64,000 nucleotides of DNA from Lytechinus pictus. Taxonomy: Eukaryota. The translations under genes were made by a program, and so were the position numbers. Shown piece after piece: positions 7,031 through 34,500 of this stretch. Positions within the stretch are counted from its first letter, which is position 1. Every line of letters begins with the position of its first letter. The stretch is taken from contig NC_087251.1 of NCBI RefSeq assembly GCF_037042905.1, positions 14,324,001 through 14,388,000 of the forward strand, in the 5' to 3' direction. A model generated the notes under the pieces. That model made no database searches and was not told the origin of the DNA. It saw only the letters and a list, made by a program, of their open reading frames with translations.

Positions 7031-7067
<37 letters not shown>

Positions 7068-7076
7068 CCTCTCTCT
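7031..7076. repeat. (CT)n microsatellite
   Basis: Directly visible. Confidence 0.9.
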
Positions 7077-8193: not shown

Positions 8194-8371
8194 CTAGAAA
8201 TAATAATAATATTAATAATGATGATGACGATGATGATGATGATGTTAACAATACAACAACTAACTGCTGAGATTTTACAGCGAAAAAAAATATTATTAGA
8301 AAATCAAACCTTTAACTCAGTCATAACAATCACCATAGAATTGTCACTAAGACGTTCTAACTCTCACGAAC

Positions 8372-8607: not shown

Positions 8608-8880
8608 CTGTGATAGTAAACAATTATGGAAGTGGAAATAAACGTGTCTTGCCGGTGTAAATAGTCAAATGATTTATATTTTCACACCCAATATCATCTT
8701 CCGTTCATTGTAAAACTACAAAGCCTAGATAACATTTAACATATCCTCTTTATATTTTAGTAATATTTAGGGTCTGATATGAATACACATTTTGAAAAAA
8801 ACACAAAGAGAGGCAGTGTTGCAAAAGTTACAAATACTGTAGGAAATTCACAAATAAAAAGTTGGTTGTTGGGAACTTAC

Positions 8881-9109
8881 AGCAAAATCGCTTTTAGTCA
8901 CTCCATATGAGACGTGCCTTTTCCCAAGTTCACTGAGAACCGGAAGTAGTTTGTCAGGGTTATCTAACACTCGGATGGCATCACCTATTGTCTGCATAAC
9001 CAGAAGACCTTGTGCCTTGAGCTTGTCGTCCATGAGAAGACTCTGGTATGACTGGTTCCGACCACCAAACGGGAAGAGCCTTCCTATATTTGGATGATCA
9101 GTAACTAAC
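8881..9109 (-). CDS. Globin domain 5 central exon (E7 Gln)
   Basis: LVTDHPNIGRLFPFGGRNQSYQSLLMDDKLKAQGLLV...LGKRHVSYGVTKSDFA; 229 nt. Confidence 0.95.
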
Positions 9110-11525
9110 CTGGAATCAACACAGAGGTTTCATTTTTTACTTGCATCTGCTAAATACTTAACATGATATATCAAAATACTAAAATAATGAAGAATATTAC
9201 TCTGATCGATGTAGAAAAAGGCGCCAGAATGTATATCACATTAGTGCTGACCGGCGAGTGAAAATAAACAATAAAGCTGATATATAATATGGACAGGGCA
9301 ATATCAAATCCGCGCTATTCATTATTACTACATGGGTTTGTGATTTTGAGATGATTTGAAAGCATCATTGAAGTCAAGGGTCAACTAAGGTGGATAAAAT
9401 TGAGATTTCACTGCACCGACATACACTGCATATCAATGTTTTACATTAATGTAAAGAAAGGGAACGAGAGAGTTACCTTGTGAAAGTCATATTTTGATTT
9501 ATGAGAACTGTCGCTTTCTTTCCTAATTTCACACCCCATGTCAGTGTCATTTTTCTAAATGATCACGACAACGAAGAGCAAGATTTTACTGGATTGTCTT
9601 TGTTTCCAATTCATGATTTGAATATCTTCTTGAGCATTTTGCACTTAGCAAGAATAGAAATAATATATCAGTACCATTATACCATTATAAAATAAATAGT
9701 TCATTATCATGATATAAATGATAGTTACAACTTCTCCTCATTTTGAAACTGTTTTTCAAGGTCAGTTTGAATGTTGACATAAGGCTGTTTTGAAAAATAC
9801 AGTAAATCAATATTGAATCAGCCGATCGGCAACTTCGTTGCATTGAAATGATATGTGTTTACTTTGTTATTGGATGATTAAGATATTAATAATTTGCCTA
9901 TTCTCTCTCTCTCTATCTCCCTTTTTGTGGGGGGGGGGGGAGCATCATTACCCCCATAAATATACTGTTAGATTACAAAGCTTACGAATGTGAAGTGAAG
10001 AAAAGATATTTTTAAAGAAAACCTCTATTTGCAAAATGCAAAATTTGTTATGTATTTTGTATCTGATATTTATCTTAAGGTTCCCGTTTCAATATTGCCA
10101 AATATCAGAAAGGAATCTTTAGAAAATATATACAAAGTATAAGTAGAGAAGCTTTAATTGGCCGCGTGTTCTCAAACACCTGACTATAAACATACGAAAA
10201 GTCCAGGGTTAAATTATCCTGTCACAGCCCTTGAGGAATGTATTTTATATTCATTATATATTACATTAGTTAAATGAAAGTGCTGCAGGCATGATTGATA
10301 TCGACGTGTACGCGTATTTTTAAGGACCTTATACACAAGAGTGTCGAATAAGTTATTAAAAAAAATAATGAAGCGGAACTTAAACACATGTTTTGTCTAA
10401 CCATGGACCTACATGGTCTAACAGTATTATTCCTTAATTGTATTTGAATGTATTCATATCTCCATGATGTAAGCGAGTGGAGGCTTAGAGAAAGAGATCG
10501 CCATCAAGTCAAAGTTCCTTGCAACAGCTGATGTATCATTCTTAGTCAGAATGCCCTTTGGACCCATTTTACCCATCACGAGTTTGCGTAGTTCGGATGA
10601 GGTGAAGATAAGGATACGTTTTTGCAGTATTCTTAAACAGGGAAATTCCTCTCCCAAGTTTGTTTAATGAAATCAACACCCATGTGTGAACAGAGATGAT
10701 CAGACCATTGCATCGTACATTCTGGCAACGTTATGTTCATACTGTTAGTCAGTATAAAAGTACTGAAAATCAACTTATTTATTTACAAACGTGTAAGAGG
10801 TTGATTGACCGTATTATTATTCAATTCATATGATGCGCTTAAACGATTACAAAATGAAATTCTTGCCATTTTATTATACCGCCCCTTCAATTTTACCCCC
10901 ACACATTACACTTTAAAAGTGACATATTTGAGACTAACACAGAGACCCTGTACTATACATGTATATATATGTAAATAACATTTATACATATACATATATT
11001 TAATATTAATAAATTCATCATTTCCTGATGAAGCCCTATGGGCAAAAATTTGATCTATTTTTTCTCTCTCCGGTTGTTTTATTCACCTTGCATTTTGTTT
11101 TATATAAATTTAAATACACATATTAATAAAGAATAGACCTGATAATAATACCTAACAATATGTAACATTATGAACCGATCCACACTTACATTCCTAGAGA
11201 ATAGGGCACTGCCTCATTTACTTCTCGTTAAACAGTTGTACACAGAGCAAATGAGGCAGAGCGTAATTCATTCGTAATTGTTACAAGGATCATTAATTTG
11301 GGTAATTTTAGCTGCCCCTCTGCCTCTTGTCTCTTTATGTTCGTATTGTAGTTTTCTTTGATTTCCATCGCACAATTCTCTATCACTCCTCCTCTATCTC
11401 ACTTGTCTATTCTCGACAAAAGACGAGATAATTCTTTTAAAATTATATGGAAGGAAGAAACAAATTAGCGATGCAAACAGTAAACAACTGTCGACACAGC
11501 AAATAAACAATTTTTTGGTACTCAC

Positions 11526-11749
11526 TTTGCAAACAGGATGGCGCCACACTTGGCTTTCTCCGGTGCCACTATCCTCCAGGAACCTTTGATGAGGTTCTTC
11601 TGTTCGGTGGTCAATCCACCTGCTGGTAGCAATGGTGCCATGGTCTCAGCTATAACTGAGAAGACAATTGACCATGCAGCCTCCAGCTCCGATGTGAACC
11701 TGCTTCCCAGACCCACGCGTAGTGCATGTATCAGAGACTCACCTACAGG
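11526..11749 (-). CDS. Junction exon, domain 4/5
   Basis: PVGESLIHALRVGLG...KGSWRIVAPEKAKCGAILFA(K); 224 nt; donor GTGAGT. Confidence 0.95.
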
Positions 11750-13212
11750 CTGATGAAGGTAGGTGAAGGAAAATCCAGTTGAAATCAATGAGAACTACCC
11801 AAACTTTATTTTCTTCAAATTGAAAAACAACCCTAAAATATCCCAAGTTAAATCTAGTAGAATGCGCTACCAAGAAGCTGTAACACGGGTATGAAACGTT
11901 CAATTCATATGTCTGGATTATATAAATATATAACGTAATTGTGCCTAGATAGTACTGCCATTCACACTTCAACACCAGATCCGTTTGGTCACTAACCTTG
12001 ATATATGCGCGGACATAACAGACAGGAGATCGAATGTCGAAAGTTCAATGCATTGAACAATATTTTGTATTATGAATTAAAAGAATGCGAAGAAATAAGT
12101 ACCTTGTCTAAAATTCATCGATCACAACACCATTGTATTGTAAAGATCTATATTCTTTCTCCGGTTTGTTGTTGAATGATAACAAATATTATTGTTTCAT
12201 TGTCAAGAGTTTGTGTTTTCATCCCTAATACGCACTGAATTCCCAGCGTGGGCGTTGTTGACAAACAATACTGGAACTATGATCGTCCAATAAGAAAAGA
12301 GCTTCAGTGAATTATCAGAAAGAATTCTCCGAAGTTGTATGACGCACATACAAGTATTTTTTAACTGAATGTCACCACAATATCTTTGAAGGAAGTATGT
12401 CTTATCAGAGGTGAATTAGGAAAAATATTGAGGGTGCTGAGCTAAATTGAATTAAATCATGAACAATAACCACTTTTCAAGCTAAATACCACATGGTTTT
12501 CAAGTAATTAAAGTCAAATCGACCACATATTCAATTCAATTGGGTGAAAATTGTGATGGTAAAGAAAATGCAAGGCAATGATTTAAGTACTATGTAACTT
12601 TCCTGTGGTAACAGGGGTAGGATACGGGGAGAGGCGGGGGGGGGGGGGGGAGCGGTGGCTCAAGTAACGATAACCCTATACCTGCATGGCAGTATACCAT
12701 TATTATTGTCTACGATCGAATTAAATGCGTTCGTTTATAACGCGAATTGTGACCCAGACATGCTTCATGAATATCAACTTTTCACCGGTAGCCATTTCTT
12801 GACATTATTCTTCTCGAGGCCATCTCTGCTAAATTGAGAAATCAATCATAATCTGAGATATATTGTATATTGCTAGTTTTCATAATAAAGTAGTAAGAAT
12901 TTCCTTATACTTGTTCATGAATTTGACGTTGTTCGAAGGGCATAAATTTCCTATTTCCGATTGTTTAAATATTTTAGAGAGCGTATTGGATGATTGATGT
13001 AGCGGAAATTTTCCTTGAGAAAAAAAGTTTTAAAATAATTTGGTACAAGGCAATGAAATATGGAAATTTTCATTAAGCAGAGGAAAAATTATATGCAAGG
13101 GAGTATACAGTTGTACGTTTCCCTTTTTTTTCATAAACTCAAAATATTGTTAAACAATTGAAGAAAGAACACAAGAATTAATTGAGAAGTTAAAGAAACA
13201 AAATTGTCATAC

Positions 13213-13441
13213 CTTGAAATGTTGTTTGGTCACATTGTATCCTACGTGACGCTTGGCGAGATCTTGCAGTATCGGGATTAACAATTCCAAGTCGTCCAAT
13301 CCAGATACTGCCACTCCTACGGTATCCATTATACGTTTACCGTGGGCCCTGAGATCCTTGTTGGCGAGTAGCTGATCATAGCTAAGGTTCATGCTCCCGA
13401 AGGGAAATAGTTTGCCCACATTTGGGTTGTCTGTAATCAAT
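13213..13441 (-). CDS. Globin domain 4 central exon
   Basis: LITDNPNVGKLFPFGS...LRAHGKRI...LAKRHVGYNVTKQHFK; 229 nt. Confidence 0.95.
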
Positions 13442-13836
13442 CTGAAAAAAAAACCACAATGGCAACAACGTTATAGTGTTTTTGAGGTGTACAAAAATAT
13501 ATTTCCTCTGCCGACAACGAATACAATTATAGCAGTTTAAGCTTTTTAAATTTGTATTTTTATTTCTATGTATCATCCCTTTCTTGGTTTTATTGATCTC
13601 TCGAATTTTAAGTGAACCAACAACGGGATGGGAAGTGAAAGCCTTCCATGTTTGGCGTATAGTTATAAATGAAAAGACATGAAAAAGGAGCAACCTAATA
13701 ATTCTTCCTCAGAGAACTTAAAAAAGATAGAACAAAACTAATTGACAGATAAATAATCCCAGCGATCATCAGTCTACTTTTGTTTTGAAGAACAGTAAAT
13801 GTCTACAGCCATTTTCAGTATGTAGATGTCTCTTAC

Positions 13837-14063
13837 TTGGCAAAGAGTACCGATCCGTGTCTTGTAGGATCTTGACCGATTGTCTTCCAAGACGTCTGCA
13901 CGAGGCTTTTCTGTGTTGCAGTGATGGGTCCATCAGGGACTACTTCAGCCATAGTGTCGGTTACAACCTTGAATAATTCGGCCCATGCATTGCGGACATC
14001 TGAGGTAAATGACGACGGGCCGACGCCAAGTCTTACCGCGTGTAGAAATGCATCTCCAGTTGG
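13837..14063 (-). CDS. Junction exon, domain 3/4
   Basis: PTGDAFLHAVRLGVG...QTSWKTIGQDPTRHGSVLFA(K); 227 nt. Confidence 0.95.
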
Positions 14064-14364
14064 CTGAATAATAAGAGGGGGTATCATATAATCTTACCAG
14101 TGAACAACAAAATGAGATAAAACGTATTTTTATGGAGCAAAATAAGAAAGATGATCATTGGAGGGTAACTGATATTCTCAACTCCTTTATATGGAGGAAA
14201 TACCCCTTCCCCCACTTAATAAATAAGAATGATGAAACCGTAAGATCATCACAACGAAAAAGCGTTGAAAGGAAAACTTGTCCCGTCCTTCGCTCATCTG
14301 TTCATGTTTTCAAATCATTCAAATCTTTATTCATTTACAGTAAAAGAGATTGGATGTCACTTAC

Positions 14365-14593
14365 CGCGAAGTAACGCTTCTGGACATTGTATCCAATGTG
14401 TCTCTGCGCCAGGTCTCTGAGGGTTGGGAGAAGCAGGTCTAAATCATCAAGGCCATTGACTGCATGACCAACAGTTTCGAAGACGCGTCTTCCATGTGCT
14501 TTGACGTCCTGATTTTGTAGCAGCTGCTCATAAGTCAACCCTTTCCCGCCAAACGAAAAGACTTTGCCAACCTCAGGATAAGAAGTTGCTAAT
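14365..14593 (-). CDS. Globin domain 3 central exon
   Basis: LATSYPEVGKVFSFGG...VKAHGRRV...LAQRHIGYNVQKRYFA; 229 nt. Confidence 0.95.
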
Positions 14594-14870
14594 CTATTCG
14601 GAAGATGCATTGACGTCAATGAATAAGATGTCATCATTATCAAATGGGAATAGCTTTTTGCTGAAGAATAAGTTTTGCATCAAGACATGGAGGGAAAGAC
14701 AACGCCCCCTCCCCCCCCCCCCATGACAAGACGATAAAAAAATCAACAAATGTATTATTTACTGATATAATGATTATCCGTAACCTTTAAAATTGAACAA
14801 TTATCTTCTGGACCAGGTATGAAAAACATGAAATTAAAATGAAAAAAGTTTAAAAGGAAATTATCCTTAC

Positions 14871-15103
14871 TTGGCAAACATAACCGACCCATGTCTCTCT
14901 GGATCCCTGGACAACTTCTTCCATGACTCCTGTATCAGGCGCTTTTGTGTCGGGGAAACGATCTCCTTTGAGCCCTCCGGAAGCATGTCGGACATTGTAT
15001 CAACTACGAGTTGGAACACGGCCAGCCATGCCCCTTTCACTTCTTCGCTGAAAGACCTACCAAGTCCCTCACGGATGGCATGCATTAATGCTTCACCGAC
15101 TGG
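14871..15103 (-). CDS. Junction exon, domain 2/3
   Basis: PVGEALMHAIREGLG...QESWKKLSRDPERHGSVMFA(K); 233 nt. Confidence 0.95.
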
Positions 15104-15365
15104 CTAAACGGGTGCAATTAGTGAAATTAAGTTGATTGGTTTGGAAATAAAATTATCATGACGAAAGAAGGAAACGATTTCATTCTAAATTTTACTTCTA
15201 ATTTACTAAATGAAATTTTAGATAAATGCCCACATGCAGATAAATGACCCTCTGTCATCACTTAAACTGTAGACTACTTCAAATTCTCTTTCGTACTATC
15301 TAAAACTACTTTGTCATCATTAAAAAAAACGTTTGTCATTAATATTTAGAATCTAATACTCTTAC

Positions 15366-15591
15366 CTGGAAATGCTGTCTGGTGACACTGTACCCGATGT
15401 GTCTTCTGGCCAAATCACGAAGAATGGGCACCAGGATGTCAAGATCATCGAGGGCCCCGACTGCCTGGCCGATGGTCTCCATCACCTTCCTCCCATGAGC
15501 TCTCAGAGTCTGGTTCTCAACGAGCTGACTGTAGGAAAGATTCTCACCGAACGGAAACAGGTGAGCAACTACTGGGTGAACAGATATGAGT
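15366..15591 (-). CDS. Globin domain 2 central exon
   Basis: LISVHPVVAHLFPFGENLSYSQLVENQTLRAHGRKV...LARRHIGYSVTRQHFQ; 226 nt, one codon shorter than the other central exons. Confidence 0.95.
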
Positions 15592-15848
15592 CTGAAATAT
15601 ACAACATAAATGCAAATAGACCAATCGTTAAGATGTAGTATTACTTTTAACTTTTTGGGTGGACACTACTGCTTCTCCAGACAGGGTCATCATAATAATA
15701 GTCGTTCTGTTCAATTTCTTAATTTCGGTAGACTTAGATCTTCAACATGTTTGCAGGTTTATCTTAACGAGTTTTCACATTTTATGGCTTCTTGGTGACC
15801 TTAATTATTACTATAATTTCGTGGGTTCTTAAGAATATTAATAGGGTA

Positions 15849-16131
15849 CACTGTTTTAAAAAATGCGATTTTACAGAAAGAAAAAAGAAGATTCTGCAGA
15901 AAGCAATAACAGAATCATTCTGTAAATTCATAAAACAGGAATTTTTCTGCAATTTAACAGAACAGGTCTGTTCAAAAAGGGGAAAAGGGTGTTTTATTTA
16001 AGGAAATTTGTCAGATTCCATACACCAAATACCAATTTCCTGTAGTTTACGCAATCTGGTAAGATTACAGGTGTTCTCGAGACTCTGCTGCAGGAACTTC
16101 TTTTATTTTAAGGATAAATTTTCTAACAGTG
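15849..16131. mobile_element. MITE with CACTG termini and TA flanks (CACTA/EnSpm-like)
   Basis: TA|CACTGTT...AACAGTG|TA. Confidence 0.6.
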
Positions 16132-16207
16132 TAGATTACTTGGAAGCAAATCGGTATACTTCCCGATATATAAATCCTAGTCTCTTCTTGAAGCTATTTT
16201 GACGTAC

Positions 16208-16431
16208 TTTGCGAACATGGCTGCTCCGTGTTGCTCCATGTCTAGAGATAGCACTCCCCAGGTCTTCCTTACAATATCCTGTTCTCTGGTCGTAAGCGGT
16301 CCATCGGAAAGCTTCGTTGACATCGTATCAGCCACGATGTTGAAGACGGCGGTCCATGCTGCTTTCACATCAGATGTGAAACCTGCTCCTATGGCCTGTT
16401 CTAGGGTGAATAGAAGAGCTTCACCAACCGC
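16208..16431 (-). CDS. Junction exon: domain 1 G7-H, linker, domain 2 A-B12
   Basis: AVGEALLF...KAAWTAVFNIVADTMSTKLSDGPLTTREQDIVRKTW...HGAAMFA(K); 224 nt. Confidence 0.95.
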
Positions 16432-16674
16432 CTAAATAATTGTTTTAAGAGAGAGAATTAGAGGCTTTTTATATTTGGTTAATTCTTGCGGAAACTTCCT
16501 AAATGCAAAAATAAAACGTAACTTGATCGGACTTTATAAACTGGGTCATGTCGACCTATGCAGAGGACTATTTCAAAACTTTCCAATTGCTTTATCTCTC
16601 TGACATATTATAACTGGTCTAGCACAATTTGCAACTACATTCATGTATAGATCTGAATCTGTGGATTCACTAAC

Positions 16675-16903
16675 CTTGATATGTGTCTTCTTAGCATTGT
16701 AAGAATTATGCCTCTGGCCGAGGTCTTCGAGTATTTGGACGACGAGTTCCATGTCGTCAAGGTCTTCGACCACCGATCCTAATGTATCAATGACCCTCAT
16801 ACCATGAGCTCTGACATCGGGATCAACAAGGAGTTCTCCATACGACAGATTCTTTCCACCGAAAGAAAACAACTTTCCAATATCCGGGTGATCGGACGTC
16901 AAT
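16675..16903 (-). CDS. Globin domain 1 central exon (B12.2-G7.0)
   Basis: LTSDHPDIGKLFSFGG...VRAHGMRV...LGQRHNSYNAKKTHIK; 229 nt, AG/GT flanks. Confidence 0.95.
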
Positions 16904-20807: not shown

Positions 20808-21022
20808 TTAGCAAACATCATGGAACCATGTAGTTCTGCCTTCTTTTCCAGTGTCTTCCATGTATTCCTCACCAGGGTCTTTTGTCTCTCATCCAGGCTA
20901 GATGTGATTGGTTCATGAATCAAGGAGGTGCTAGAACCCTGGAATCCAAGGTTCTCCAACCCCCTATCATCCTCCATTCCAACCACCGCTGGTCGAGAAG
21001 AGCTGTTCAGGAGGGGCATTTT
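20808..21022 (-). CDS. Coding exon 2: linker plus helices A-B12 of globin domain 1
   Basis: KMPLLNS...LDERQKTLVRNTWKTLEKKAELHGSMMFA(K); acceptor TTCTTTAG, phase-2 donor GTAAGT; 215 nt. Confidence 0.92.
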
Positions 21023-21171
21023 CTAAAGAACAAAAGGTTAAAACTTATTGATAAAGCCGGTGAGTCCGTTCTACATGTATATTCCATGATATAGAAAAGA
21101 AGTAGAGACTAAATAAACTCACATCAATGCTAAACTTCACTGTTTTAATATTCCATGTTAACGATACTCGT

Positions 21172-21446
21172 GGAGCAGTGTGGCCCAGTGGATTAGTCTC
21201 CGGACCTTAAAACAGAGGGACTCGAATCCTAGCCATGGCTTGATTGCCTTTGTCAAGAAATTGATCCACAATATGTTGCACTCAACACAGGTGAGGTAAA
21301 TGGGTACCGGCATGAAGTCATTCCTCACAAAGCTGTGAGCTCCGGAATCCGTAGCCTAACTTAGCCGGGGTAATATAAAAGCATCTAGAGCACCTAAGAG
21401 GTTGGATATATGCGCTATACAATTACCCTATATTCTCATTATTATT
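21172..21446 (+). mobile_element. tRNA-derived SINE
   Basis: A box TGGCCCAGTGG, B box GACTCGAATCC, same core as the 3655 copy, short ATT tail. Confidence 0.8.
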
Positions 21447-23492
21447 CCAAAAAGAAGACCATCATAAACATTTTCAACCTCGTACCTATATGATTACGAT
21501 TCGTGTTAATCTAAGAAAATCGTTGCTACCATGTGTGTGATTATGCAAATGCTATCTGTCTTTTGTTCCATGGAAACTCCTACCTGCATGATCGACGACA
21601 AAATAATTAGCCGGTTGATGAGAAAGTAAAATGGTCAGATAACCCGTTCAAAATCAACTCTAGTTTTAAATAAGGGTCAGTCTGCCCTAAAACGTAAAAC
21701 TAAAGGTTGAAATGAAACATGAAGATATCACACTCCTTTCCATTCCCCGATGAAGTATGTATATTATTCCGTTAATACAGGGGTTATATACAAGTTATAT
21801 AACAATAAGGGAAAGCAAATAAATGTCCTGCAGTCAACCATGCATTATCTATCATTTCTATTCAAAGAGTAAAAATAAAGGTTCTGTCTGGCATTCTAGG
21901 GTGAATCCCTTCAACTCCATCTTATTCCTAATTATCTTCTTTCTCATTCACCGAACCTACAACTATTTCCTTTCTCGCCAATACATTCGCAAAAAAGACA
22001 AGTAAACCCTAGCAGCGATTTTCCATATTGAAATCACCAACAACACTTCATTAGCGTGGTTTGTCAACAACAGCGTCTACATATTACATTTGATGTTAAA
22101 AGTCCGGCCCGCAAAATCAGTGTGTAGCATCCAGCGTATTATTTCTGAGGATACTAAACATGGTAAAGAAAACACCTTTGAACCCCACTTTCCATTAAGA
22201 GGGGGAAACACAACACATGAGCAATCGCAACTTCATAATTTTTTGTTACAATTAGTGAGTGTATTTTTAATATCATATTTTTTAAATTGAATATTAACAT
22301 TAATATTGAAAATTTAGTGAGAATAATTCAGGAATCGAGGGCAACGAAAAAGAGAAGGCTAGAAAAGGGGTGAGAGTGAGCATTGTGGTATGGAGAAAAA
22401 ACATTAGTAGGTTCCTGTCAAGATTTCTGTAAAAAACATACGAAACTGTGTTGTCTATATTAAAGTGTACATATAATAATTACTGTATTTTTGGAGGGTT
22501 CTTATTTTCAAGTGTAAATTTTTTTGCCCTCCTTTTCTTGTAATGATATTTCCATTTACGAATGTACAATTCGATGATATTTTAATTGTTATCAAGAATA
22601 AATTGAATTTGAATTGAATTTAATTGAATATAATTCGAAGGCAGTCTAGGCAGATTCATTACATATATCTCAACCTAGACGGGCAACCAGGACCAATGCA
22701 ATCTTTGCTTCAGCGGAAATCTGTGATAAATTCATATCGATGAATTATCATTAGATTATATTTGAAGTACCTTATTCATTGTTGTTTATGTTAAATCGTA
22801 AATGCGAAAAAAAAAAATCCATCGATGAATATTGGTACGCAGTTAGGATCATTTCATTATATCAATGCATCAGAAAACGTTGCATAAAAGAAATCTCTGG
22901 AATTTTTTGGCCAGAGTTTTTTCAATGTGTTATTGTCAATGGCATGATTTCGTTTGACAGAGTTTTTGTTTATTTGCCACAGGTTTTTTTACAGTAAAAG
23001 ATTTATGCAACAGGCCCCAGAAGGCAATACACATGATATGGAATATTGATAGGACCGGTCTGTCAGAGGAGAAGAAAACAATCCTGCAAACAACCACCCT
23101 TTATCTGTTTTTTTATTCTATTCAAATTGAAGTATAATGAAAGGTTTTAGCTTTTGAGAATGAATCCCTTCAACTAAATTTGATTTCATATTATTTTTCA
23201 TCATCATTCATCAATTCTGCATTGAAGGTAGTCATTCCATTAATATGTGGAATTTGCAGAGGAGCAATTATCGCTGGAGCAAGTGTCATGGAACCCATTT
23301 GAGACCATAAAGGTGGAAACACTGAACCTGTATAAAAGTGATCGCAATGTGGCATTGCTGAAGGCCAATGTTAAACATTTTTGAAATTTTCTTGTGAAAA
23401 ATTAACGATCTATTCTTTCTCTCTGTAAAAGAAAGACATAAATTATGCAAACGCATTTTTCAGCCTTGTTTGGTGTACATTTATTAGTTTAA

Positions 23493-24095
23493 AGGACAAG
23501 TCCACCCCAACAAACAAATTATTTGAATAAAAAGAGAAAAATCCAACAAGAATAACACTGAAAATTTCATCAAAATCGGATGTAAAATAAGAAAGTTATG
23601 ACATTTTGAAGATTCGCTTAATTTCACAAAACAGTTATATGCACACCCTGGTCGGTATGCAAATGAGGAGACTGATGACTTCATCCACTCACTATTTCTT
23701 TTGTATTTTATTATATGACATATGAAATATTCAAATTTTCTCCTTATTGTCAAGTAAAACAGTGATTAATTCCTCTCTGTACATGTGCAATGAGCATTGT
23801 TTAATACTATATGGTTCAGTCAAGTCGGTCCCTATGGTCAAATCTGTAAAAATTGAAATATTGTATAATTCAAACAATAAAAAACAAAAGAAATAGTGAG
23901 TGATGGACATCATCGACTGACTCATTTGCATGTCACTGAGTTGTGCATATCACTGTTTTGTGAAAAATAAGCGAAACTTTAAAATGCCATTACTTTCTTA
24001 TTTTACATCCGATTTTGATGAAATTTTCGGTGTAATACTAGTTTGATTTTTCTCTATTTATTCAAATCAACATTTTGCTGGGGTGGACTTGACCT
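23493..24095. mobile_element. Kolobok-like MITE (TTAA TSD), copy 1
   Basis: TTAA|AGGACAAGTCCACCCC...GGGGTGGACTTGACCT|TTAA; long inverted arms. Confidence 0.8.
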
Positions 24096-24232
24096 TTAAT
24101 AACTGGTGCCTAATAGTGACGCAAATCAACTGAAATTGATATATACCTACTGTTTTCCGAAATATTGTGAAATCTTAATATCATTAACCCATGAGGGAAA
24201 TCATATTCAACGAGGATATGTTATTACATCAA

Positions 24233-24563
24233 CATGGCGAGATATTTGGACTCTCGCCGGGCCTTGGACACTTCATATCTTGACTTAAAAACAATTAATG
24301 TTTTTAAGTCGACTTGGCAAGATAAAATATCTCGCTATGTTGACATATAACGTTTTATAAGTCAACTTGGCAATATACCGTATCTCGCCATGTCGACATA
24401 TAACTTCTTATAAGTCGAATCGGCGAGAAAACGTATCTCGCCATGTCGACATATAACTTTTTATTCGTCGACTTGCCGAGATAACGTATCTCGCCATGTC
24501 GACATAATAAGGTTATTATGTCAACATGACAAGATAAAATATCTCGCCAAGTCGTCAAGTCGA
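24233..24563. repeat. Degenerate tandem repeat of about 50 bp
   Basis: Recurring ATCTCGCCATGTCGACATA...TCGACTTGGC units. Confidence 0.75.
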
Positions 24564-24944
24564 TGGCAATTTAAAGGCTCCGTAAAAATGTTCCGTTTCA
24601 ATACATCTATTTATAGTTACCCAACCCGAACCTCTTCAAATATCCTTTTTAGAGAATCCAAGAACAGCTCTTGCCCGAAGATCTATTAGACATACAGACC
24701 CCGACATGAGGAACTATCTTTCTCCTTATATTCGAACGTGCCCAACCAACGAAAATCCATTTTTTCTACTAAATATGAAACGAAAGGTTGATATGTATCA
24801 TATAATTATGTTCTATTTTTTCATTGCATGGTTCCATAATGTACCGCCACAAATAATGTATCTTTTGTTTGTGAGTATTATTATGCAAACACACTACCTA
24901 TATGTATATTATATGTATATAAAGCAACGAGTCATAGGTTTTCA

Positions 24945-26146
24945 CAGTGGCGTACCGTGGGTCACGGCATTGGGGGGGGGGGGCACCAGCAAAAATGTTG
25001 AGTCACTTCGTGAGCGCACGAAGCGCGCTCAGTTGCCAGGTATACTGACCTAATAGAGACATTTTAAAGACAATGCCATTAAACGGATATGTACCTCACT
25101 AATCAAATTATGCAAGCGCGAAGCGCGAGCTGAAAATGTTGATATACAGACTTAAAAAGGGACATTATAATCAATTTTTTGTAATCATGATACGTACCTG
25201 TCTCGCTAAACAATGCGAGCACGAAGCTCGAGCTGAAATTTTTGTATATATATTGACCCCAAACAAGGAGATTTTAAGGACTATATTTTAGGAATCCATT
25301 AAGAGTATACATATCTAACCATAGTCATCTAATGCGAGTGCCAAGCGCTTGCTGATTTTGTTAGAATTACATCTAAACACATGAAGCACTTGTAGTCATT
25401 GTAATCATGAATATCATACGCATCTTACTAATCAAACATTGCGAGCGAGAAGCGCGAGCTGAAAATTTAGATAATTCAGACCTGAAGAGGGGCATTTTAA
25501 GGCTTGTTTGTAGGAATTCACGAAGACCATACGTATTTCACTAATCAAGTGATTCGAGCGCGAAGCGCGAGCTGGAAATTTTTGATATTCACATCAGAAA
25601 AAAGGGACATTTCAAGGACTGATCCGTATTCATGGAGAGCAGACATATCTCACCAATCCACTAATGCGAACGTAATCACGGACAGGAAATGTTTTATATT
25701 AAGACCTTAACATGGGGCAATTACTTTAAGTAGACATGAAAAAGAAGCATATGTCACTACATAAACCAATAATAACTCGAAGTGCGAGGAAATATATTTG
25801 GTGTATATTGACTTGAAAACGGGAGGTTTTAGTACAACAGGATTATATATCTCATTAAACAGACAATGAAAGCACCAAGAACAGTGAAGACATAGGCCCT
25901 CGAAAATTATGTTTCATAAAGTTATGATAAAAATGTTTATTATGTAATGTAACATAACATAATTATAATATAAAATTATAATGAATAATAAGTTCTTCTT
26001 TCCCACTTCGTTTCTCTTCCTTTCTCCCTCGTTTCCTCCTTTTCCCCGTTTTTTTGTTTTGTTTTTTGTTGTTGTTTTTTTTGGTCAGCCGATTGGGGGG
26101 GCACGTGCCCCCCATGCCCCCCCCCCCCCCCGTAATTACGCCACTG
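24945..26146 (+). mobile_element. hAT-type non-autonomous element, family A
   Basis: TIR CAGTGGCGTA/TACGCCACTG; perfect 8-bp TSD GGTTTTCA. Confidence 0.85.
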
Positions 26147-29100
26147 GGTTTTCAGGCAGGATGTCTTCTATATTCTATGCAGTGTTACTCCTCTCTTCAT
26201 GTTGCCCTCTCTATTCAGTTCTCTCCCTCCCCTCTGTTTTTTCACCACCCTCACCCCGTAATTCTTATTCTATTCTTTAATTTGATGCTTGCATCATTGA
26301 TTGTATTCTTTTAGCTATTGTATACTGGTAATTTATGTATACATTTTGGACATCGCTCCCAAGCTCTTAGAGATTATGATGACCCTTTCATGTGTGTATA
26401 TTATCCCTGTGATTATACTTATGACAAATGTTGACAATGATGTATATATATGAATAAAATAAAATAAAAATCAAATCAAAATGCCCAAGGAAATGCCCAA
26501 AGGAATGTGCATGCGCAGATTCTTATCCCAATCTACCGTTTTCTTCCCTCCCTTCAGGCTCTAAAATGCTCTCACATCAATGTTCTGTTTTCCTGTTATT
26601 GTCAAGAAGATACCTTGAATGTAAGATTAATATCTGATGAAGAATCACTTTCTCTATAAATAAAGTCATATCAATTTCCTCACATCTCTCGTTATATATG
26701 TTAATTCATCTTAAGACGATTTTTTTAGGAGACCAGCCTTACTGTCTAAACTAACTCTTGGTTATTTGAGATGATTTCTCACTTGGGAAAGTTCATTAAT
26801 TTGTGAAAGTAATTCTTCATGTTCACGACCTTTTCCGACCTTTCGAACACCTTTTGAAATGACAGGCAATCTCCCATCGATTTGTTTACGTCTTTCCAAT
26901 TATACCTAAAAGCCAAAATCACATTTCGCATGAATCGGTGATGCATTATATTGGCATTGAATTGAAATTCAACCGAGTAGCTTTATTACGGGACGAATAT
27001 TTTAATTTGTTAATTAATGGGGGCGGAAACTTTCAAAAGGTCCTTAGGAATTATGCTCCTAGATACAGTTGGTATATCTCAACATTTGGCTGACATTTGG
27101 TCTATAAATCAAATGTCACATTTCTTAGAATAAAGATAAAACTAAAGTGCTCTTAACCATTACTCAAAAACGTATATATCCCCTCGTGTCTGAAATTCGC
27201 AATTTCAATACAAAGTTCGTCTTACTTTTGAAATGTTCTGTGATCCCGTCGTAAAGTCATTGGAGTTTACAATCTTTTTCCCCAAAGTATAATGCCCTCT
27301 CTACAAATCTTTTATCACAAAATGGGTAAACTTACGAATTAATATATTTTACCACTAATTGACAGATATACAATCACAAGAATTTCTTAAATCGACTCCA
27401 TTCACTTGCAAATCCACACGTAAAGTGTCAAAACATACATTTTGTTTCCGCCAGCTACTCTACAATTCTCCAGGGGGCATTTCGCCGCCATTTACACTGG
27501 AAATATTGATGTAGAGTTAATCTGTTATGTCAACAAGACTTATGATCACCATAGTATAGGTGTCAGGAAAAAAATAACAATACAGGTTGAACGGGTGCTT
27601 CATGAATGCTGATGTGTTGGCGTCACGCGATCTACCACTTTAAGGCTCCTCCCTTACTTTAAGGTGCTCTCAAATTGTGATCGAGTATCGTTAATAGGGA
27701 GTTTGCGCACCGCCATACAGAACACTTTAAAGAAAAAAGAAAATGAATTGTCAAATGCCCTTCATCATAAAGAGCAACCAAGAAGTCTTTGTCGAAAATT
27801 GGTGAATCAAAGCAGCGGTTTTGTCTTGGACTCTGGACAAATGACATATTACATTTTTTTTCGTCAGCTTCGAATCTTCGAACAAAACTGTTCTTCCGGT
27901 TCACCAATTATCGACAAAGCCCTACTAGCCGTCCATTGTGATTTGACTTGCTATTACAATACACTTACTGTGTTCGTGAAGACGTTCAACGATGCGGTGC
28001 GAAAAATCTCTATTGACCGGAAAAAGAGAGCTAACGATATAAAACGGGAACGTTTCACGTTTCAGAGAATGCTTAATACAAAAAAATAAAATAAAATAAC
28101 ATGAATAAGATGACAAATTAATACGAGGAAACTTCGATGGTGGTCATAATTATTTTGAATTTCAAATTATTTGTTTTGATTAGGATCCCATCGAAGAGCA
28201 GTGTCATTTTGTAAATGCCACTGAAATAGGCTTTCCTCCGATGCAAATATTTATTGATTTTCATGTATTTTATTATATGGAAATAAAAGCAAATAAATAA
28301 TGTGCTGCAAAAAAAATAATCATCTTTGATCAGAACAACTTTATAAGATGCCTCTCATTGGATTTCCGTTCTCATTTGGGTAAAATGATGACGTTACTGT
28401 TATCGTTGTCGATGTCTTATTTAGATTGCGTGCTAATGGGTCGTTTGACATAATCGACATAGAACTGTATAAAAAGAAGGATTCAAATGAATAAAGATTC
28501 AAGTATCAGTCACAATGCAACAAATCACCGCAAATATGCACCCCTTTGCAAACAGGGAATACCAGAAAAGGGGCCTTTTGTAATCATGCACGTTCACAAA
28601 CAGGCGGATATCATATATGAAGGCTACTTGCGAATTGTTGTTATATTTCATTTGTTATATTACATTTGTTGTTATATTTCAGGTACCGAGTGAAAAAAAA
28701 TCACGTGACAAATTGTATTTGTCCATCATACACAAGGTGGATTTCTGCGTTTCGCTGATCTTTCGAGCTTTTATCTATACTCATATCGGGCGTTATTGTT
28801 ATATGGAGGATACATTGTGTATATTATCTTTGTTAAAAGTCAATTGCACTGTGTAGGATCTTAAAAAGTCATTTGTACTGTGTACTATACACACATAAAC
28901 TCAAGTTTAATAAAACAAGCATCGACAGGAATTAAAACAATCAAAGACACGCAACAAAGAATGCTCAATCCCCTTAGCTTTGCGTTAATGTGCAATTTAG
29001 GTCTAAAAACATAAAACAAATAATCACCCTTTTGACCAGTGAATGGGATAAACTACCACTTCGTATCTAAAGCGATATGAAGGTAGATCTCTTTCCTAGG

Positions 29101-31217
29101 TTTTGAATGCCTTGGGATCCAAATTGTTTGTCCCACTACATTCGCCAACAGTAATTACACGCTTACTATACATGTATTATCCAAGAAACCATACATAAAT
29201 GCATACACAGTATTTTAGTCGCTAACCATTTACCAAGAAAACTCATAAAGATACTATAGTGATATTATGATCGAACTTTAAAATGTTAAACACATTTCAA
29301 AAGTGCATCCATGAAGAACACCCTGATGCATTAATACAAATGGAGAAAATTGAACCTCGGAGTGAACCATAACAATTTTTGGAAAGTACATTTCGCACGC
29401 TTGGCGCCATTTTAGTTCGATTTTTTGTTCTTCCCTTCTGTAAAATGCAGGTCAATCTCAGAAGCCAGGTTCCGGTATTTAAGAGAGAATAGTTGAACAT
29501 GATTTGCGTGCTCGGCTAAGGGGAGTGTTTCTGTCTTAAGGTTGAGAGGAAACCAAATCAATTTAGGACCCATAATGGGAGTTATTATTTACCATCATCT
29601 TTTCCACCTATTCCCTTGGACGTGACACTGTTTAGAGCCTTCTCGTTTTAAGGACATTGTTAGAGACGAATGGCTGGAATAGCTCAAGGGTTGTTGAATA
29701 GGAAAATGAAGAAAGTATAATACCACATGTAATGTTGTATTGAGTACAACAATAAGCTTTTTGGGAAAATGAGATATAAGCAAGCTTATAATGTGACGAA
29801 AAAAATGAGATAGAGAGGAGAGAGAGAGAGGGGGGGTGGAGTGGAGGCAAAAGGTGGAGGCGAGAATGGATGATGGAGGAGAGAATAGGAATGAGAGAGG
29901 GGGATACTGTGTTTTTATGTGTGGAAGATGGAGGATCAAGAGAGGGGAGAGAGTGTGGACGACGGAGGATGGAGGAGAGAGAGGACCTATTAATAGATCC
30001 ATAATGTTCGAAATATATTAGTGAATGCTAATAGCAAAATGAATAGAAAAGCGAAAAGGGGAGTGTGATAAGAGAAGAACACTTACAAGAACATGGGAGA
30101 TTGATATAATGTGCGTGACAGAGAGAGAGAGGGAGAGAGAGAGAATAGATACAGGATGAGAAAGTGAGGAAAAACAAGAGAGGGGGAGGGGGAGGCGAAA
30201 AGGAAATGGGAGGGAAATAAGCTGGGATGAATAATCCAGGGATGCTAAAAGCTCATTCCATAATGCAAGCTCTTGCCGTGAGCACCAATATAGTATAACC
30301 CAAAAATTAATTAAGAGAGAAATAAAAAGATATTCATGATTAAGGAAACTATCCTTGATGATTGGCAGGAGGACAAACTGAACGCTGAAAGGCGATCTAG
30401 GTCAAATACTGTACATTATTAGGGATCCTCTCTTTCTTGTGATCAATTTAATATACTGGATATAAGCCTCAAGGTTAATAAGATAGTTTGGAATTCGAGA
30501 TAGATACTGTAATCGGCAAAATGATCACCTCACATCAAGATACTTCTATTTTTAATTTCATCCAATTTCAGTTCAGAATGGCAGTTGCACACTTAAGTAT
30601 TGATTAATCATTTCATAACAATCTGAAATATTTTATTCTTGGAGACCACGATATTAAACACAGTTAAGGCAGTTGATTGAAAAAATATGTTGAGTAAAAT
30701 CTTAGTCTAACGATTTCAAATTGGAAGCCCCAAAAGACGTTTTATGTATATTTAAGCATCTAAAGATGCCTACAAAGTCGTTTATTTTCTTTATTTTAGT
30801 CACAGAGTCATGATATGCTGAATGAAATTGATTCTATCTAATACATTTGGCATGTAACAGTAGTCAATCGGATGGATATTCAGGGAAACTAAATGAATAT
30901 GATGCGTTTGAAAAGTGCAACACAATAGGATATTTTTAAAAGGATGACATTTTCTAGTTTATTTTTAAGCGTGACTCTAGCCTCAACCCCCACCCCTACG
31001 CCAATTTACAGACTCTAGTGATTTATTATTCTAGGGGGGGGGGGGGTCCAGAGTCAGAGGGGTTACCAAAACCTTTGGTTGATGATACATAGTAGACTGG
31101 AGTGTGATACCAACACCCTAAAAATCCATTAATATTCTGAATGATAATGCCAAGAACGTTCATGTTTGTAAGTAAAGATATGCAACAACAGGTGTAGAAA
31201 TCAAGTAGACAACATAC

Positions 31218-31532
31218 CCCTGATGAATCTGGAGGGTACCAATTATTCTCTGTCTGGATACCAATTGTTGATACTGGAGTTGGTTGCTTAATTCCGTCAA
31301 AGGCATCCACGCCCACGGATGGACCTAATCCAGGAGCAGCTAGGTTATTATTCTCCACCACTAGCCCATCACTACGTTTCTCATCTGATGCACCTCCTCG
31401 AAACTTAACCTCGTCCGGTGAGGGAGCGAATGATGCGGATGATGTTCCATTCACATCAGGAGGAACTGGTATTTGCTGATGGAGGGATTGATGCGATCCG
31501 TTGCGCACGGGCTTAGAATGACAGCAGCCCAT
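31218..31532 (-). CDS. Coding exon 1: MGCCHSK... N-terminal acylation signal plus low-complexity linker (105 aa); exon probably extends to 31680 as 5'UTR
   Basis: ATG in good context (AACATGG). Phase-0 donor GGG|GTATGT at 31217 matches the phase-0 acceptor at 21023. Strong acceptor TTTTCTTTTATCTTTCAG at 31681. Confidence 0.75.
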
Positions 31533-34500
31533 GTTATTAGGTGGGGCGGACGCGTGTCCGCCAGATGAAGTAGGGATTCAACTTACGCACTTAATGTAAA
31601 GGATGTTAAGTTACTTTGAGGGATGGACCTTTTCACACAAACCGTTTCAGTCTATCAGAGATGACATGATGAAAGGATATCTGAAAGATAAAAGAAAATC
31701 GGAATAGTTCATGATTAAGCACACCTTCAACAATATATCTATTTTGGACAACTTGACGTATCGGCCAGGGACCGTGTATAAATTTATTTCAAGGAAATAC
31801 GGGAATGACATCTGTACTTATAATAAGTAAACCTTAGCTTTGAGAAAGGGTGTCAGTTCAGTCACATGTAATTATGCCAAATGAATGTGACTAAATTCAT
31901 ATTTTAAAAGACCTACTTGTGATATCCATACATCTCATTATAGAACCCAACTAAGCATGAGTAAGGGTCCGATTCGTCGTTTTGCTTCTTCACTTGGTTT
32001 TTCAAATCACTGCTTTAAATTATGTCATCACATGAAGGTGGAATATGCAATAGTTACAGAAATGAATCCCCCAAATTGAAGAGAAACAGAAACGTTGTTT
32101 TGCTTAAAAGTAGGAAATCAAGGAAAAAAAGTTTGCGATTTATTCGAATCGAAACCAATTACCCACAACACCACCACTTTTCAGGAGCTCGACCTGGTTG
32201 TTAATATTATTTTTATCAATAATTCAATATTAGAAGAATATCCTTTTCGCCACCCTAACCTGATCAAATTACATTGGCTTTAACAAACAAATATAGAAGT
32301 TAAAATGTCAGAAATTCAAGTATAGCAACAAAGTCTATCATAAACAAGGGAAGGTTTACACCAGGTGATTATAATTCATAAGCATGCATGTTACTTATTG
32401 GAATGCCTATTGTAATTTATTGAAAAATCTTAATTTATTTAGGAATATAACATTTGTTCACTTCATTGTAAAGATGTGTATTCAAAGAGTTCTGCCTTGG
32501 CGTCAGCGTCAAATGTAGAAACAAATTATTTTTCAGTATTAATTTACAGGTATTCATTCCACCATATAATGGAAATGGAGCCATGGCATGCATTGGATGA
32601 CTGTGCAATATTTTAACCAGGAGCATCCTAAAATGTTCTTCATATTATTACTAACCGTCGTATTAATACTTCTGTACATGTATATCACTTTCAAATTATC
32701 CCTATGATCCGATGATATGTAAAGCCACACGCATCTTCCTTCCGCCTGGACCTATATTCATATTTCTCTTTATTACCCCTTATCAGATCTATCAGATGGT
32801 ATCAGTACCTCCTACCAATAATGATGAGGTAGGAGGATACCCCCTTGGGAGCTCTTTCTCCCAGGTAAGTCTGATGGATATGATGATACTGGGCCTATAC
32901 TGCACACTACAATTGTACGGAGAAGACTACATTGTTAAAATTAAGCCGATTCCAATTTATGAAATTGGGCACGATTAGTACAAAGTTAGTCATGTACATT
33001 TTTAGCGGTTTTCCGATATCCACTTTGTGCCATTTTGGATTAAAAAGTTTTTTTTTTATTTATCACAGTTCGTAATTAAATTGTTTTATTACTCATCCTG
33101 TGCAGTTTTCGTGAATGTACATAACGTTCTCAACTGTGACGACGAAGAAGAAAATCACTTATTAGGAATCAGACCATTTGTATATAGAAAAATGTCCCCT
33201 TAGACTATAATATCTGTCTACACATACATGTGAATATGAACATAAAAAGCAAAAACATTCATTTCGATATGATATTTCTGTAAGAACCGTGCCCATTATA
33301 CTACTTTTATTCATGATCTTCTCTCAGAGCGAATCAGAAATCATTTACACATTCTCCCATGACAATGCAATTATCCCTTTTGCATGACATAAAGGATGCT
33401 ATTTTAAAAAGACGACAGACAGATCAAAAAAATTTATTGCAACAGAGTTATCTTTTCACTATAATTTTCAGATTGCCTTTTTTCATTATCAGTTTAAAGG
33501 AATACAATATATAGTGATAATGGGAGATAAATCCTGCTGAAAGTAGGATTACTCTGCATGTATTAAAAGATGTATTTGAAATCGTGTGACTTTCTTTCCA
33601 CGAATTCCGGCGAATTATTTTTTTGCCAATAATGGTGAAACTCAGCGATAAGGCTCAAATGCCTCCAACCCGATAATATGAACAAGAAACTTGAAGCAAA
33701 TAAAATGATACGCATGTGCTGCATCTACATCATCTACAGATGTATTAAATATTCAGCCTCGATATTACATTGTTCTTGAGCTTCCCTCTAAAACAATTTA
33801 CAGACAATGAAAGCCATAACCAATGAAGCCATAACCTTATAATATAATGTACATTTCATAACAAATTATTCATCTAATCAAAATCAGAGAGATGGAATAC
33901 TTGTCTATGAGTTTTGATAACATCGAGAAATATATTGCTGCAACTGAAGCTTCATCATCAAAGCTTGAAAATGAAACAAATCCGAACAAAATTGCTTATT
34001 GCTTACCCAAATCGCGAGTTTTCTTCCTCACAAACAGTAGTCTATGGTGTTAACATTGTTCATGATTTTTCCGATGGAGTGAACTTATCTTCGTGGTTTC
34101 GCAAGTGTAAATGATATTGTTGGGGCATTTTAATGGTTTATATAGTGAACAGAGAACATCAGGAATTTCAAAGGTGAAGGTCTTGAAATATCATGTATGG
34201 GAAAATATTAATCAATATTATGTTAACACCATTCATAGGTGGTTACGTGATGCGCGTGCATGAGAGGGCTTTTGTAAGCTGCGGTATTGGCTTATAGGAG
34301 TGGTCAAATATTTCAAACTATTATTCCAAAGTCATGGCCCCTTTCTCACTCTATCTACTTCTGGATATATCTTTAAATTCCTTGTCACCTGAACTGCAAA
34401 ATTTACGGTTTTATGTTTTTCTTTTCTTCAATTATCCGAGAGGAGAAAGATTAAAATTCCATTCGACTAAGGTCGCGGACAAAAACGTGACTTTGTCAAA

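What the first reader, a model, noticed from the sequence alone, without database searches (positions are those of the whole stretch)
20808..31532. Giant polyglobin probably tethered to membranes by an N-terminal myristoyl/palmitoyl anchor (MGCCHSK)
Seen: an isolated exon about 10 kb upstream of the globin array starts MGCCHSK and ends in a phase-0 donor. That donor joins in frame to the phase-0 acceptor of the exon that begins domain 1 (...DSSG|KMPLL...). Established: Gly2 with Ser6/Lys7 fits the N-myristoylation consensus, and Cys3/Cys4 are typical S-palmitoylation sites. Globin X and various invertebrate single-domain globins use this kind of dual acylation for membrane targeting. Inference: a chain of 10 or more haem domains hangs from the cytoplasmic face of a membrane on a flexible tether of about 145 aa. 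It could act as a membrane-proximal O2 store, an NO/ROS sink or a multi-haem redox array. This differs from the secreted multi-domain haemoglobins of Artemia and molluscs.
Basis: partly seen in the sequence, partly recalled or inferred. Interest (0 to 1): 0.88.

Follow-up and report, generated by a model that had tools for sequence, protein, structure and literature searches.

The report
Lipid-anchored 18-domain sea-urchin neuroglobin
This sea-urchin gene encodes one chain of 18 globin domains, and RNA shows it begins with a conserved lipid-anchor signal, so the protein likely hangs from the inner face of cell membranes, with its flexible tether predicted to be clamped into pairs by the hub protein LC8.

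Summary
Confirmed. The exon 31532-31218 (MGCCHSK...) is spliced to 21022 in contigs of 4 of 4 runs laid, from two organisms and four studies. It is the first coding exon, behind a non-coding exon at about 60.6-60.8 kb. The gene model has 38 coding exons, 2888 aa and 18 globin domains, and runs out of the window. It is the published sea-urchin polymeric neuroglobin. The start fits a published NMT motif in full, and MG-C recurs in 6 of 8 named echinoderm species, including a 3-domain starfish and a single-domain crinoid protein. New here: the tether holds a conserved IQT[ED] motif (6 of 7 species with a tether) of LC8/dynein-light-chain type. A model with LC8 scores 0.70 against 0.07 for the best control, possibly by likeness to solved complexes. 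Acylation, location, LC8 binding and haem chemistry are untested. I found no paper linking this polyglobin to acylation, but three key works were not read. The scan noted the same gene and anchor idea before, on an overlapping window (e1-7811475), not on other DNA.

The parts
60614..60832 (-). Upstream non-coding exon (5' end not defined) with two GT donors, after 60803 and after 60614, both spliced to the acceptor before 31680
   Evidence: Loose ends behind 31681/31683 in X1, X5, X9 map once each to 60615-60644 and 60806-60832; donors read
31533..31680 (-). 5' UTR part of the first coding exon; in-frame stop at 31580-31578; start context AACATGG (A at -3, G at +4)
31647..31667 (-). Six-codon upstream ORF in the 5' UTR, in frame with the main ORF and closed by a stop
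   Evidence: effect untested
31218..31532 (-). First coding exon part, residues 1-105, predicted disordered tether
   Evidence: no Pfam family; no secondary structure over residues 1-143 of a 99% identical protein, mostly pLDDT under 50 (single sequence)
31512..31532 (-). MGCCHSK: predicted N-myristoyl (Gly2) and S-palmitoyl (Cys3, Cys4) signal
   Evidence: Fits the NMT motif quoted in PMC9018777; no base differences in organism B over these codons in 3 of 3 runs
31248..31271 (-). STIGIQTE, residues 88-95: LC8/DYNLL-type docking motif (IQT anchor)
   Evidence: Only match of the pattern in 2888 aa; kept in 6 of 7 species with a tether; model with LC8 scores 0.70 against 0.07
21023..31217 (-). 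10,195-nt GT-AG phase-0 intron, rich in repeats
20808..21022 (-). Second coding exon: rest of tether (106-144) plus helices A-B of domain 1; phase-2 donor
   Evidence: 215-nt gap between record 464 and 680 of the contig
20942..20959 (-). LENLGF, residues 127-132: short motif kept in three echinoid genera, role unknown
101..16903 (-). Globin array, window part: 10 core exons (helix B to G) alternating with 9 exons that carry helices G-H, the linker and helices A-B of the next domain. It continues to G000:C7:14305665 with 8 more core exons
   Evidence: five consecutive CT..AC joints listed from contigs between 13441 and 16208

Best explanation
The gene is spliced into one 2888-residue reading frame of 18 neuroglobin-like domains that starts with Met-Gly-Cys-Cys, which is likely myristoylated and palmitoylated so that the chain likely hangs from the cytoplasmic face of a membrane, where it would act as a high-capacity sink for NO and reactive oxygen. 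Shown: the splice junction, the true start, the conservation of MG-C and of the IQT motif, and proximal His in 18 of 18 domains. Inferred from established chemistry: Met removal, myristoylation of Gly2 by NMT, then palmitoylation of Cys3/Cys4 by a zDHHC enzyme, trapping the N-terminus on Golgi or plasma membrane as for globin X (about 85%). Inferred: an LC8 dimer binds residues 87-95 of two chains and zips them into a pair with 36 haem sites (about 50%). Inferred, weakest: the job is redox or NO buffering next to the membrane rather than bulk O2 storage (about 50%); chaining domains multiplies haems per anchor, which suits a stoichiometric sink. History (inferred): the anchor is old. A single-domain acylated globin like the crinoid protein gave rise to arrays separately in urchins and starfish by copying a two-exon unit.
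For: Junction in 4 of 4 runs and an unbranched 3461-nt contig from the UTR into the array in 2 of 4 runs. Upstream in-frame stop and good start context. Strict NMT motif in 10 of 18 protein records checked, looser MGxxx[ACGST] with Cys3 in 13 of 18. Two exact 6-mers shared between the urchin and Asterias tethers, where 10 of 100,000 shuffles give two and 156 give one. All 37 introns GT-AG, no stop. His F8 18 of 18, His E7 17 of 18, Phe CD1 17 of 18. Globin X needs Gly2 and Cys3 for membrane location (PMC3176823). Tree of 83 domains: urchin domains one group (0.965), starfish domains another (0.893) joined by the crinoid MGC protein (0.957). LC8 model 0.70, best of 3 controls 0.07, runs agree in at least 89% of contacts, partner pLDDT at least 59, contacts centred on residues 89-94; that mark was reached by 51 of 78 solved complexes and 2 of 108 mismatched pairs.
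Against: No acylation, localisation, binding or haem measurement exists here. The Diadema, Asterias and crinoid starts break the strict NMT motif (Glu at 5; Asterias also lacks Lys/Arg at 7). 5 of 18 records do not start MG: P0167 starts at Met121, P0170 inside domain 1, Patiria P0151 and P0002 elsewhere, crinoid P0161 has 33 residues in front. The LC8 pass may be from memory of solved LC8-peptide complexes, and the tool is uncalibrated for peptides. PMC6607443 says many anchor-bearing peptides do not bind LC8; position -3 here is Ile, not the preferred basic residue; the pattern was defined after the motif was seen; the crinoid lacks it. RNA support is shown only to domain 4; beyond that the chain rests on splice signals and on a database model of equal length (P0175, 30 differences).
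Confidence: 0.7

Rival explanations
1. Same anchor, but the array is a local O2 store or diffusion aid under the membrane of cells that face hypoxia.
For: 18 haem sites per chain and recent expansion of domains 7-12 (76-93% identical) fit selection for capacity. Distal His in 17 of 18 allows reversible O2 binding.
Against: PMC3176823 argues that membrane association makes a respiratory role unlikely for globin X. Domains are neuroglobin-like (best solved-structure matches of the Asterias protein are plant haemoglobins and neuroglobins), and neuroglobins autoxidise fast (own knowledge).
Confidence: 0.2
2. The protein is mostly soluble: the acylation signal is weak or bypassed, with translation starting at Met107 or Met121.
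For: One database model starts at Met121 (P0167). Met107 has A at -3. A uORF precedes the MGCC start. Three distant homologues miss the strict motif and the Patiria models lack MG.
Against: Contigs run unbranched from the MGCC exon into the next exon in X1 and X2. MG-C is kept from crinoid to urchin while most of the tether diverges (57 identities over 129 aligned positions against Diadema, versus 92 of 145 for domain 1).
Confidence: 0.1
3. A membrane redox-signalling device: haems make or relay superoxide or electrons along a fixed multi-haem wire, and LC8 or another partner couples this to a pathway.
For: Myristoylated nematode globins with redox-signalling roles exist (titles and abstract openings of PMC3520999 and PMC5022669). 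Pocket residues differ in domains 5, 14, 17 and 18, and domain order is kept across urchins.
Against: A model of the 3-domain Asterias protein folds each domain well but has pTM 0.41, which gives no sign of fixed domain packing (weak, 15 sequences, 160 disordered residues). Domain number varies from 1 to 18 among homologues.
Confidence: 0.15

Closest known systems
Strongylocentrotus purpuratus polymeric neuroglobin (LOC763287; 16 domains, once split 14 + 2)
   Same: Domain-by-domain orthology outside the recently expanded block 7-12, no central intron, POMT-type neighbour; current database isoforms start MGCCQSK and carry STIGIQTE.
   Different: 18 domains instead of 16. The papers searched call the N-terminus 'unknown' (PMC4527676 Table 1); neither PMC4527676 nor PMC3485006 contains 'myrist' or 'acyl(at)' in the main text.
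Globin X and other dually acylated single-domain globins
   Same: Gly2 and Cys3 at the tip of an N-terminal extension (PMC3176823); distal and proximal His.
   Different: Those have one domain; this has 18 on a tether of about 145 aa. Published phylogeny and synteny place this gene with neuroglobin, not globin X (PMC3485006, PMC4527676).
Vertebrate neuroglobin
   Same: Reported orthologue; B10 Phe, E7 His, F8 His pocket.
   Different: Vertebrate Ngb is a single cytoplasmic domain (PMC3176823) with an extra E11.0 intron (PMC3485006), and has no acyl anchor (own knowledge).
LC8/DYNLL clients with a disordered TQT/IQT motif
   Same: IQT anchor, Thr or Asp at -4, Gly or Ala at -2, Glu or Asp at +2, no proline inside the motif, disordered setting.
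   Different: No paper held all of globin, neuroglobin, dynein light chain and LC8 (0 hits). Position -3 is Ile. Binding is modelled only.
Multi-domain haemoglobins of Artemia, Daphnia and molluscs
   Same: Covalently chained globin domains.
   Different: Those are extracellular O2 carriers (Daphnia: PMC7771090; Artemia and molluscs recalled). This N-terminus has no hydrophobic signal stretch by inspection and carries an acylation motif.

Membership tests
Echinoderm polymeric neuroglobin (LOC763287 orthologues) | Tandem globin domains in one reading frame | tested here: met
   38 exons, 2888 aa, no stop; 18 PF00042 stretches in the 99% identical P0175; RNA to domain 4
Echinoderm polymeric neuroglobin (LOC763287 orthologues) | Myoglobin fold with proximal His F8 in each domain | tested here: met
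   18 of 18; Asterias homologue model matches myoglobin and neuroglobin structures at TMt 0.81-0.90
Echinoderm polymeric neuroglobin (LOC763287 orthologues) | Two introns per domain (phase 2 in helix B, phase 0 in helix G), no central intron | tested here: met
   the labels B12.2 and G7.0 are from PMC3485006 and PMC4527676
Echinoderm polymeric neuroglobin (LOC763287 orthologues) | Domains group with same-position domains of S. purpuratus | tested here: met
   Domains 1-6 and 13-18 pair one to one; 7-12 form a shared expanded group
Neuroglobin orthologue by synteny | Adjacent to POMT2 | tested here: inconclusive
   A PF16192 gene lies tail to tail, 8.8 kb from the stop, and a second copy is on C15. 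Searches of solved structures do not tell POMT1 from POMT2; the POMT2 label is recalled.
Dually acylated (myristoyl + palmitoyl) proteins | Gly directly after the true initiator Met | tested here: met
   Exon in transcript contigs, upstream in-frame stop, non-coding upstream exon
Dually acylated (myristoyl + palmitoyl) proteins | NMT motif MG[^DEFRWY]X[^DEKR][ACGST][KR] and Cys at 3-5 | tested here: met
   Window protein and 10 of 18 records strict; Diadema, Asterias and crinoid only loose
Dually acylated (myristoyl + palmitoyl) proteins | Acyl groups attached and membrane location depends on them | not testable with these tools
   needs labelling and G2A, C3S/C4S constructs
Globin X | Single globin domain | tested here: not met
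   18 domains; it works like globin X at the anchor but is not filed as one
Globin X | Falls in the globin X clade | not tested
   No globin X or vertebrate neuroglobin sequence was in the tree
LC8/DYNLL clients | TQT/IQT/VQT anchor with permissive flanks | tested here: met
   IQT at 92-94, Thr -4, Gly -2, Glu +2, no proline at -5 to -1; -3 is Ile, not basic
LC8/DYNLL clients | Motif lies in a disordered region and is conserved | tested here: met
   Low pLDDT in two models (low confidence is indirect evidence of disorder); 6 of 7 species with a tether
LC8/DYNLL clients | Direct binding in the LC8 groove | tested here: inconclusive
   Model passes, 0.70 against 0.07, in the groove at LC8 59-70; textbook type of complex, so the pass shows likeness only
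Secreted multi-domain haemoglobins | N-terminal signal peptide | tested here: not met
   No hydrophobic stretch in residues 1-105 by inspection; no signal-peptide predictor was run

The most novel reading that the evidence does not exclude
Echinoderm neuroglobin is a membrane 'haem brush': two chains, each held by myristate and palmitates, are zipped by LC8 into a dimer that holds 36 haems under the plasma or ciliary membrane. It is the first globin client of LC8 and the first acylated multi-domain globin in animals, its length is tuned by two-exon copying or skipping, and it shows that the deuterostome neuroglobin lineage kept a membrane anchor that vertebrates lost.
Probability: 0.35. Interest if true: 0.8.

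Novelty: new variant of a known kind. Interest (0 to 1): 0.58.

Why it matters
Neuroglobin's function is a long-standing open question. A neuroglobin orthologue that keeps a lipid anchor from crinoids to urchins, and multiplies its haems 3- to 18-fold twice independently, says that the useful site is at a membrane and that capacity matters. Sea-urchin embryos allow direct tests: anchor mutants, LC8-motif mutants and knock-out under hypoxia or NO stress. It also fits the idea, cited in PMC7771090, that soluble globins derive from membrane-bound ancestors, and it assigns a role to the 'unknown N-terminal' of a published protein.

Tried and rejected
Word-index protein searches with a globin exon (43 candidates) and the MGCC exon (198 candidates) found nothing; the length limit of 2000 aa and short queries explain this, and later searches found the homologues. 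The run search listed no holder on record as RNA; the spliced GT-AG joints are what show the contigs to be RNA. Raw-read runs X18 and X19 (about 6% read) covered the exon at depth 0.39 and 0.31 and listed no read across the junction: too shallow to count either way. Shared 4-mers with the Patiria and crinoid tethers are not significant (22-25% of shuffles). One exon against solved structures gave only two bacterial globins. Minor Pfam hits on P0175 below or near cut-off are sums over repeats and were dropped. A dileucine sorting signal at KMPLL was considered and dropped: no acidic residue at -4 (recalled rule). The idea that the MGCC exon belongs to a separate gene is rejected. Two papers were not held. 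Searches of earlier findings by words and by sequence returned nothing.
Full report
Observation. The minus-strand stretch 31532-31218 is 315 nt, reads MGCCHSK to PPDSSG and ends at a GT donor in phase 0. The acceptor at 21022 continues in frame as KMPLL into helix A of the first globin domain. The exon is single-copy in the genome search. An ATG-Gly-Cys-x-x-Ser/Thr start occurs once in the 184 kb examined on both strands.

The junction is real. The run search listed 17 holders in 5 studies, none on record as RNA. Laid on 31100-31800, runs X1 (organism A) and X5, X9, X13 (organism B, three studies), 4 of 4, have 30 loose letters beyond 31218. These match one place in the window, 20993-21022. 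In X1 and X2 (2 of 4 runs; one study) a single 3461-nt contig has the exon at record 1-464 and seven array exons at 680-2276. The 215 letters between are the length of exon 21022-20808, and the model gives the same offsets. The other two runs were raw reads, too shallow to count.

The start is the true N-terminus. Loose letters behind 31681 and 31683 map to 60615-60644 and 60806-60832: a non-coding exon with two GT donors 29 kb upstream. Inside the MGCC exon an in-frame stop lies at 31580, and the ATG has A at -3 and G at +4. A six-codon uORF lies upstream. In organism B no base differs over codons 1-19 in 3 of 3 runs; 11 differences elsewhere in the coding part of X9 change 4 residues, none in the two motifs.

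The gene. With 100 kb of neighbouring DNA, 18 core exons and 17 bridging exons were found. The model has 38 coding exons, all 37 introns GT-AG, 2888 aa, about 317 kDa, no internal stop, and ends at G000:C7:14305665. The repeat unit is an exon pair; linkers have no intron. His F8 is in 18 of 18 domains, His E7 in 17 (Gln in domain 5), Phe CD1 in 17, Phe B10 in 18. Domains 7-12 are 76-93% identical, a recent expansion. A database model of the same length, P0175, differs at 30 of 2888 positions and has 18 PF00042 stretches.

Homologues. Of 18 records checked, 10 fit the strict NMT motif quoted in PMC9018777 and 13 fit MGxxx[ACGST] with Cys3. By named species MG-C is present in 6 of 8: Lytechinus pictus, L. 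variegatus, Strongylocentrotus purpuratus, Diadema antillarum (16 domains), the starfish Asterias amurensis (3 domains) and the crinoid Anneissia japonica (1 domain). It is absent from the models for Diadema setosum, which starts inside domain 1, and Patiria miniata, which may be truncated or a real loss. One newer L. pictus model starts at Met121, and one crinoid isoform has 33 residues before MGC. D. antillarum, Asterias and the crinoid have Glu at 5, against the strict motif. The urchin and Asterias tethers share two exact 6-mers, PVRNGS and IGIQTE; 156 of 100,000 shuffles give one and 10 give two, so the tethers are homologous. A FastTree tree of 83 domains from 12 proteins, rooted arbitrarily, puts urchin domains in one group (0.965) and starfish domains in another (0.893), sister to the crinoid MGC protein (0.957), with all three at 0.944. 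I infer that the anchor predates the arrays, which grew separately.

A second motif. IQT[ED] is kept in 6 of 7 species with a tether and is missing in the crinoid. IQT is a named LC8 anchor (PMC12017986). The flanks fit the preferences in PMC6607443 at -4, -2 and +2 but not at -3. The pattern occurs once in 2888 aa and in 1.3% of shuffles of the tether; it was defined after the motif was seen. Two copies of residues 74-105 folded with two copies of an LC8 from the same genome score 0.70 against 0.07 for the best of 3 controls; runs agree in at least 89% of contacts; partner pLDDT is at least 59; contacts centre on residues 89-94 and LC8 59-70. The mark was reached by 51 of 78 solved complexes and 2 of 108 mismatched pairs; on eukaryotes by 39 of 65 solved pairs without an older like complex and 2 of 126 unrelated pairs; peptides were not calibrated. 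LC8-peptide complexes are textbook, so this shows likeness, not binding.

Structure. Residues 1-143 of P0175 have no secondary structure and mostly pLDDT under 50, while helix A folds at 84-92 (single sequence). The Asterias protein gives three confident globin domains, a low-confidence 160-residue tether and pTM 0.41, with no sign of fixed packing. Its domains match myoglobin and neuroglobin structures.

How it likely works. Shown: splicing, start, motif conservation, pocket residues. Inferred from established chemistry and from globin X (PMC3176823): myristoylation of Gly2, palmitoylation of Cys3 and Cys4, attachment to the cytoplasmic leaflet (about 85%). Inferred: LC8 pairs two tethers (about 50%). 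Inferred: the haems serve as a membrane-side NO and ROS sink (about 50%), against an O2 store (about 20-25%) or a redox signal (about 15%).

What is known. The array is the published polymeric neuroglobin of sea urchins. PMC3485006 gives orthology to Ngb by synteny with POMT2, and a POMT-type gene lies 8.8 kb from the stop here. PMC4527676 lists a 416-aa two-domain piece with 'an unknown N-terminal'. PMC7771090 left serial globins out of its acylation survey. Searches gave no paper on acylation of this protein, and none on LC8 with neuroglobin. Database models of S. purpuratus already start with MGCC, so the sequence is public. What I saw: PMC4527676 parts 1-2 of 6, passages and the supplement list (four .doc files, including the S1 alignment, unreadable; two readable files not opened); PMC7771090 passages and section 6; PMC3176823 abstract and Discussion; PMC3485006, PMC12017986, PMC6607443, PMC7475203, PMC4101818 and PMC9018777 passages only; PMC3520999 and PMC5022669 listing only. 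Blank and Burmester 2012 and Hoffmann et al. 2012 were not held and Bailly and Vinogradov 2008 was not looked up; any of them may already note this start.

Finding e1-7811475, on an overlapping window of the same gene, reached the same 18-domain and anchor reading. It is not independent support; it gave me the term 'polymeric', which led to PMC3485006.

Verdict. A real, RNA-confirmed feature and a new variant of a known kind: a known polyglobin joined to a known type of anchor, plus an unreported candidate LC8 site. Interest 0.58.

Noticed in passing
window 31647-31667 (-): Six-codon uORF in the 5' UTR, A at -3; could dampen translation of the polyglobin.
   Followed up: no
window 20942-20959 (-): LxNLGF is kept in three echinoid genera but not in starfish or crinoid; it resembles a recalled PTB/FERM-binding recycling motif.
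   Followed up: partly
P0177, P0168, P0178, P0179, P0180; P0184, P0171, P0185: Database isoforms of S. purpuratus (2595, 2443, 2291 aa) and L. variegatus (2736, 2584 aa) differ by 152 aa, one domain: possible skipping of exon pairs, or an artefact of near-identical repeats.
   Followed up: no
G000:C7:14287703-14296887 (L004, L005): POMT-type mannosyltransferase gene, tail to tail with the globin gene.
   Followed up: partly
P0034, P0022, P0075, P0126: Multi-globin proteins that start MG plus an early Cys outside this family: a 7-domain Sulcionema protein and three 2-domain proteins, one from an unnamed metagenome source and two not looked up. Acylated polyglobins may have arisen more than once.
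   Followed up: no
G000:C2, C6, C11 (L014-L023): At least 18 full-length, apparently intronless dynein light chain (PF01221) matches in clusters; 10 of them were translated to 89-aa LC8 proteins.
   Followed up: partly
window 8881-9109 (-) and domains 14, 17, 18 beyond the window: Pocket variants: Gln at E7 in domain 5, Leu at CD1 in domain 14, Phe at E11 in domains 17 and 18; ligand chemistry may differ along the chain.
   Followed up: no
window 31248: C>A difference in runs X1 and X2 turns Glu95 into Asp, as in P0175; both are favoured at +2 of an LC8 motif.
   Followed up: yes
P0049, P0042, P0083: The crinoid MGC globin and two short 'neuroglobin-like' proteins share the same longest-contig length, so they may form a gene cluster.
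   Followed up: no
P0006, P0029, P0031: Unnamed metagenome proteins of 618-1358 aa with several divergent globin repeats (28-29% to the query), a different multi-domain family.
   Followed up: no
window 21132-21795 and 23124-26443: High-copy transcribed repeats inside the 10-kb intron.
   Followed up: no
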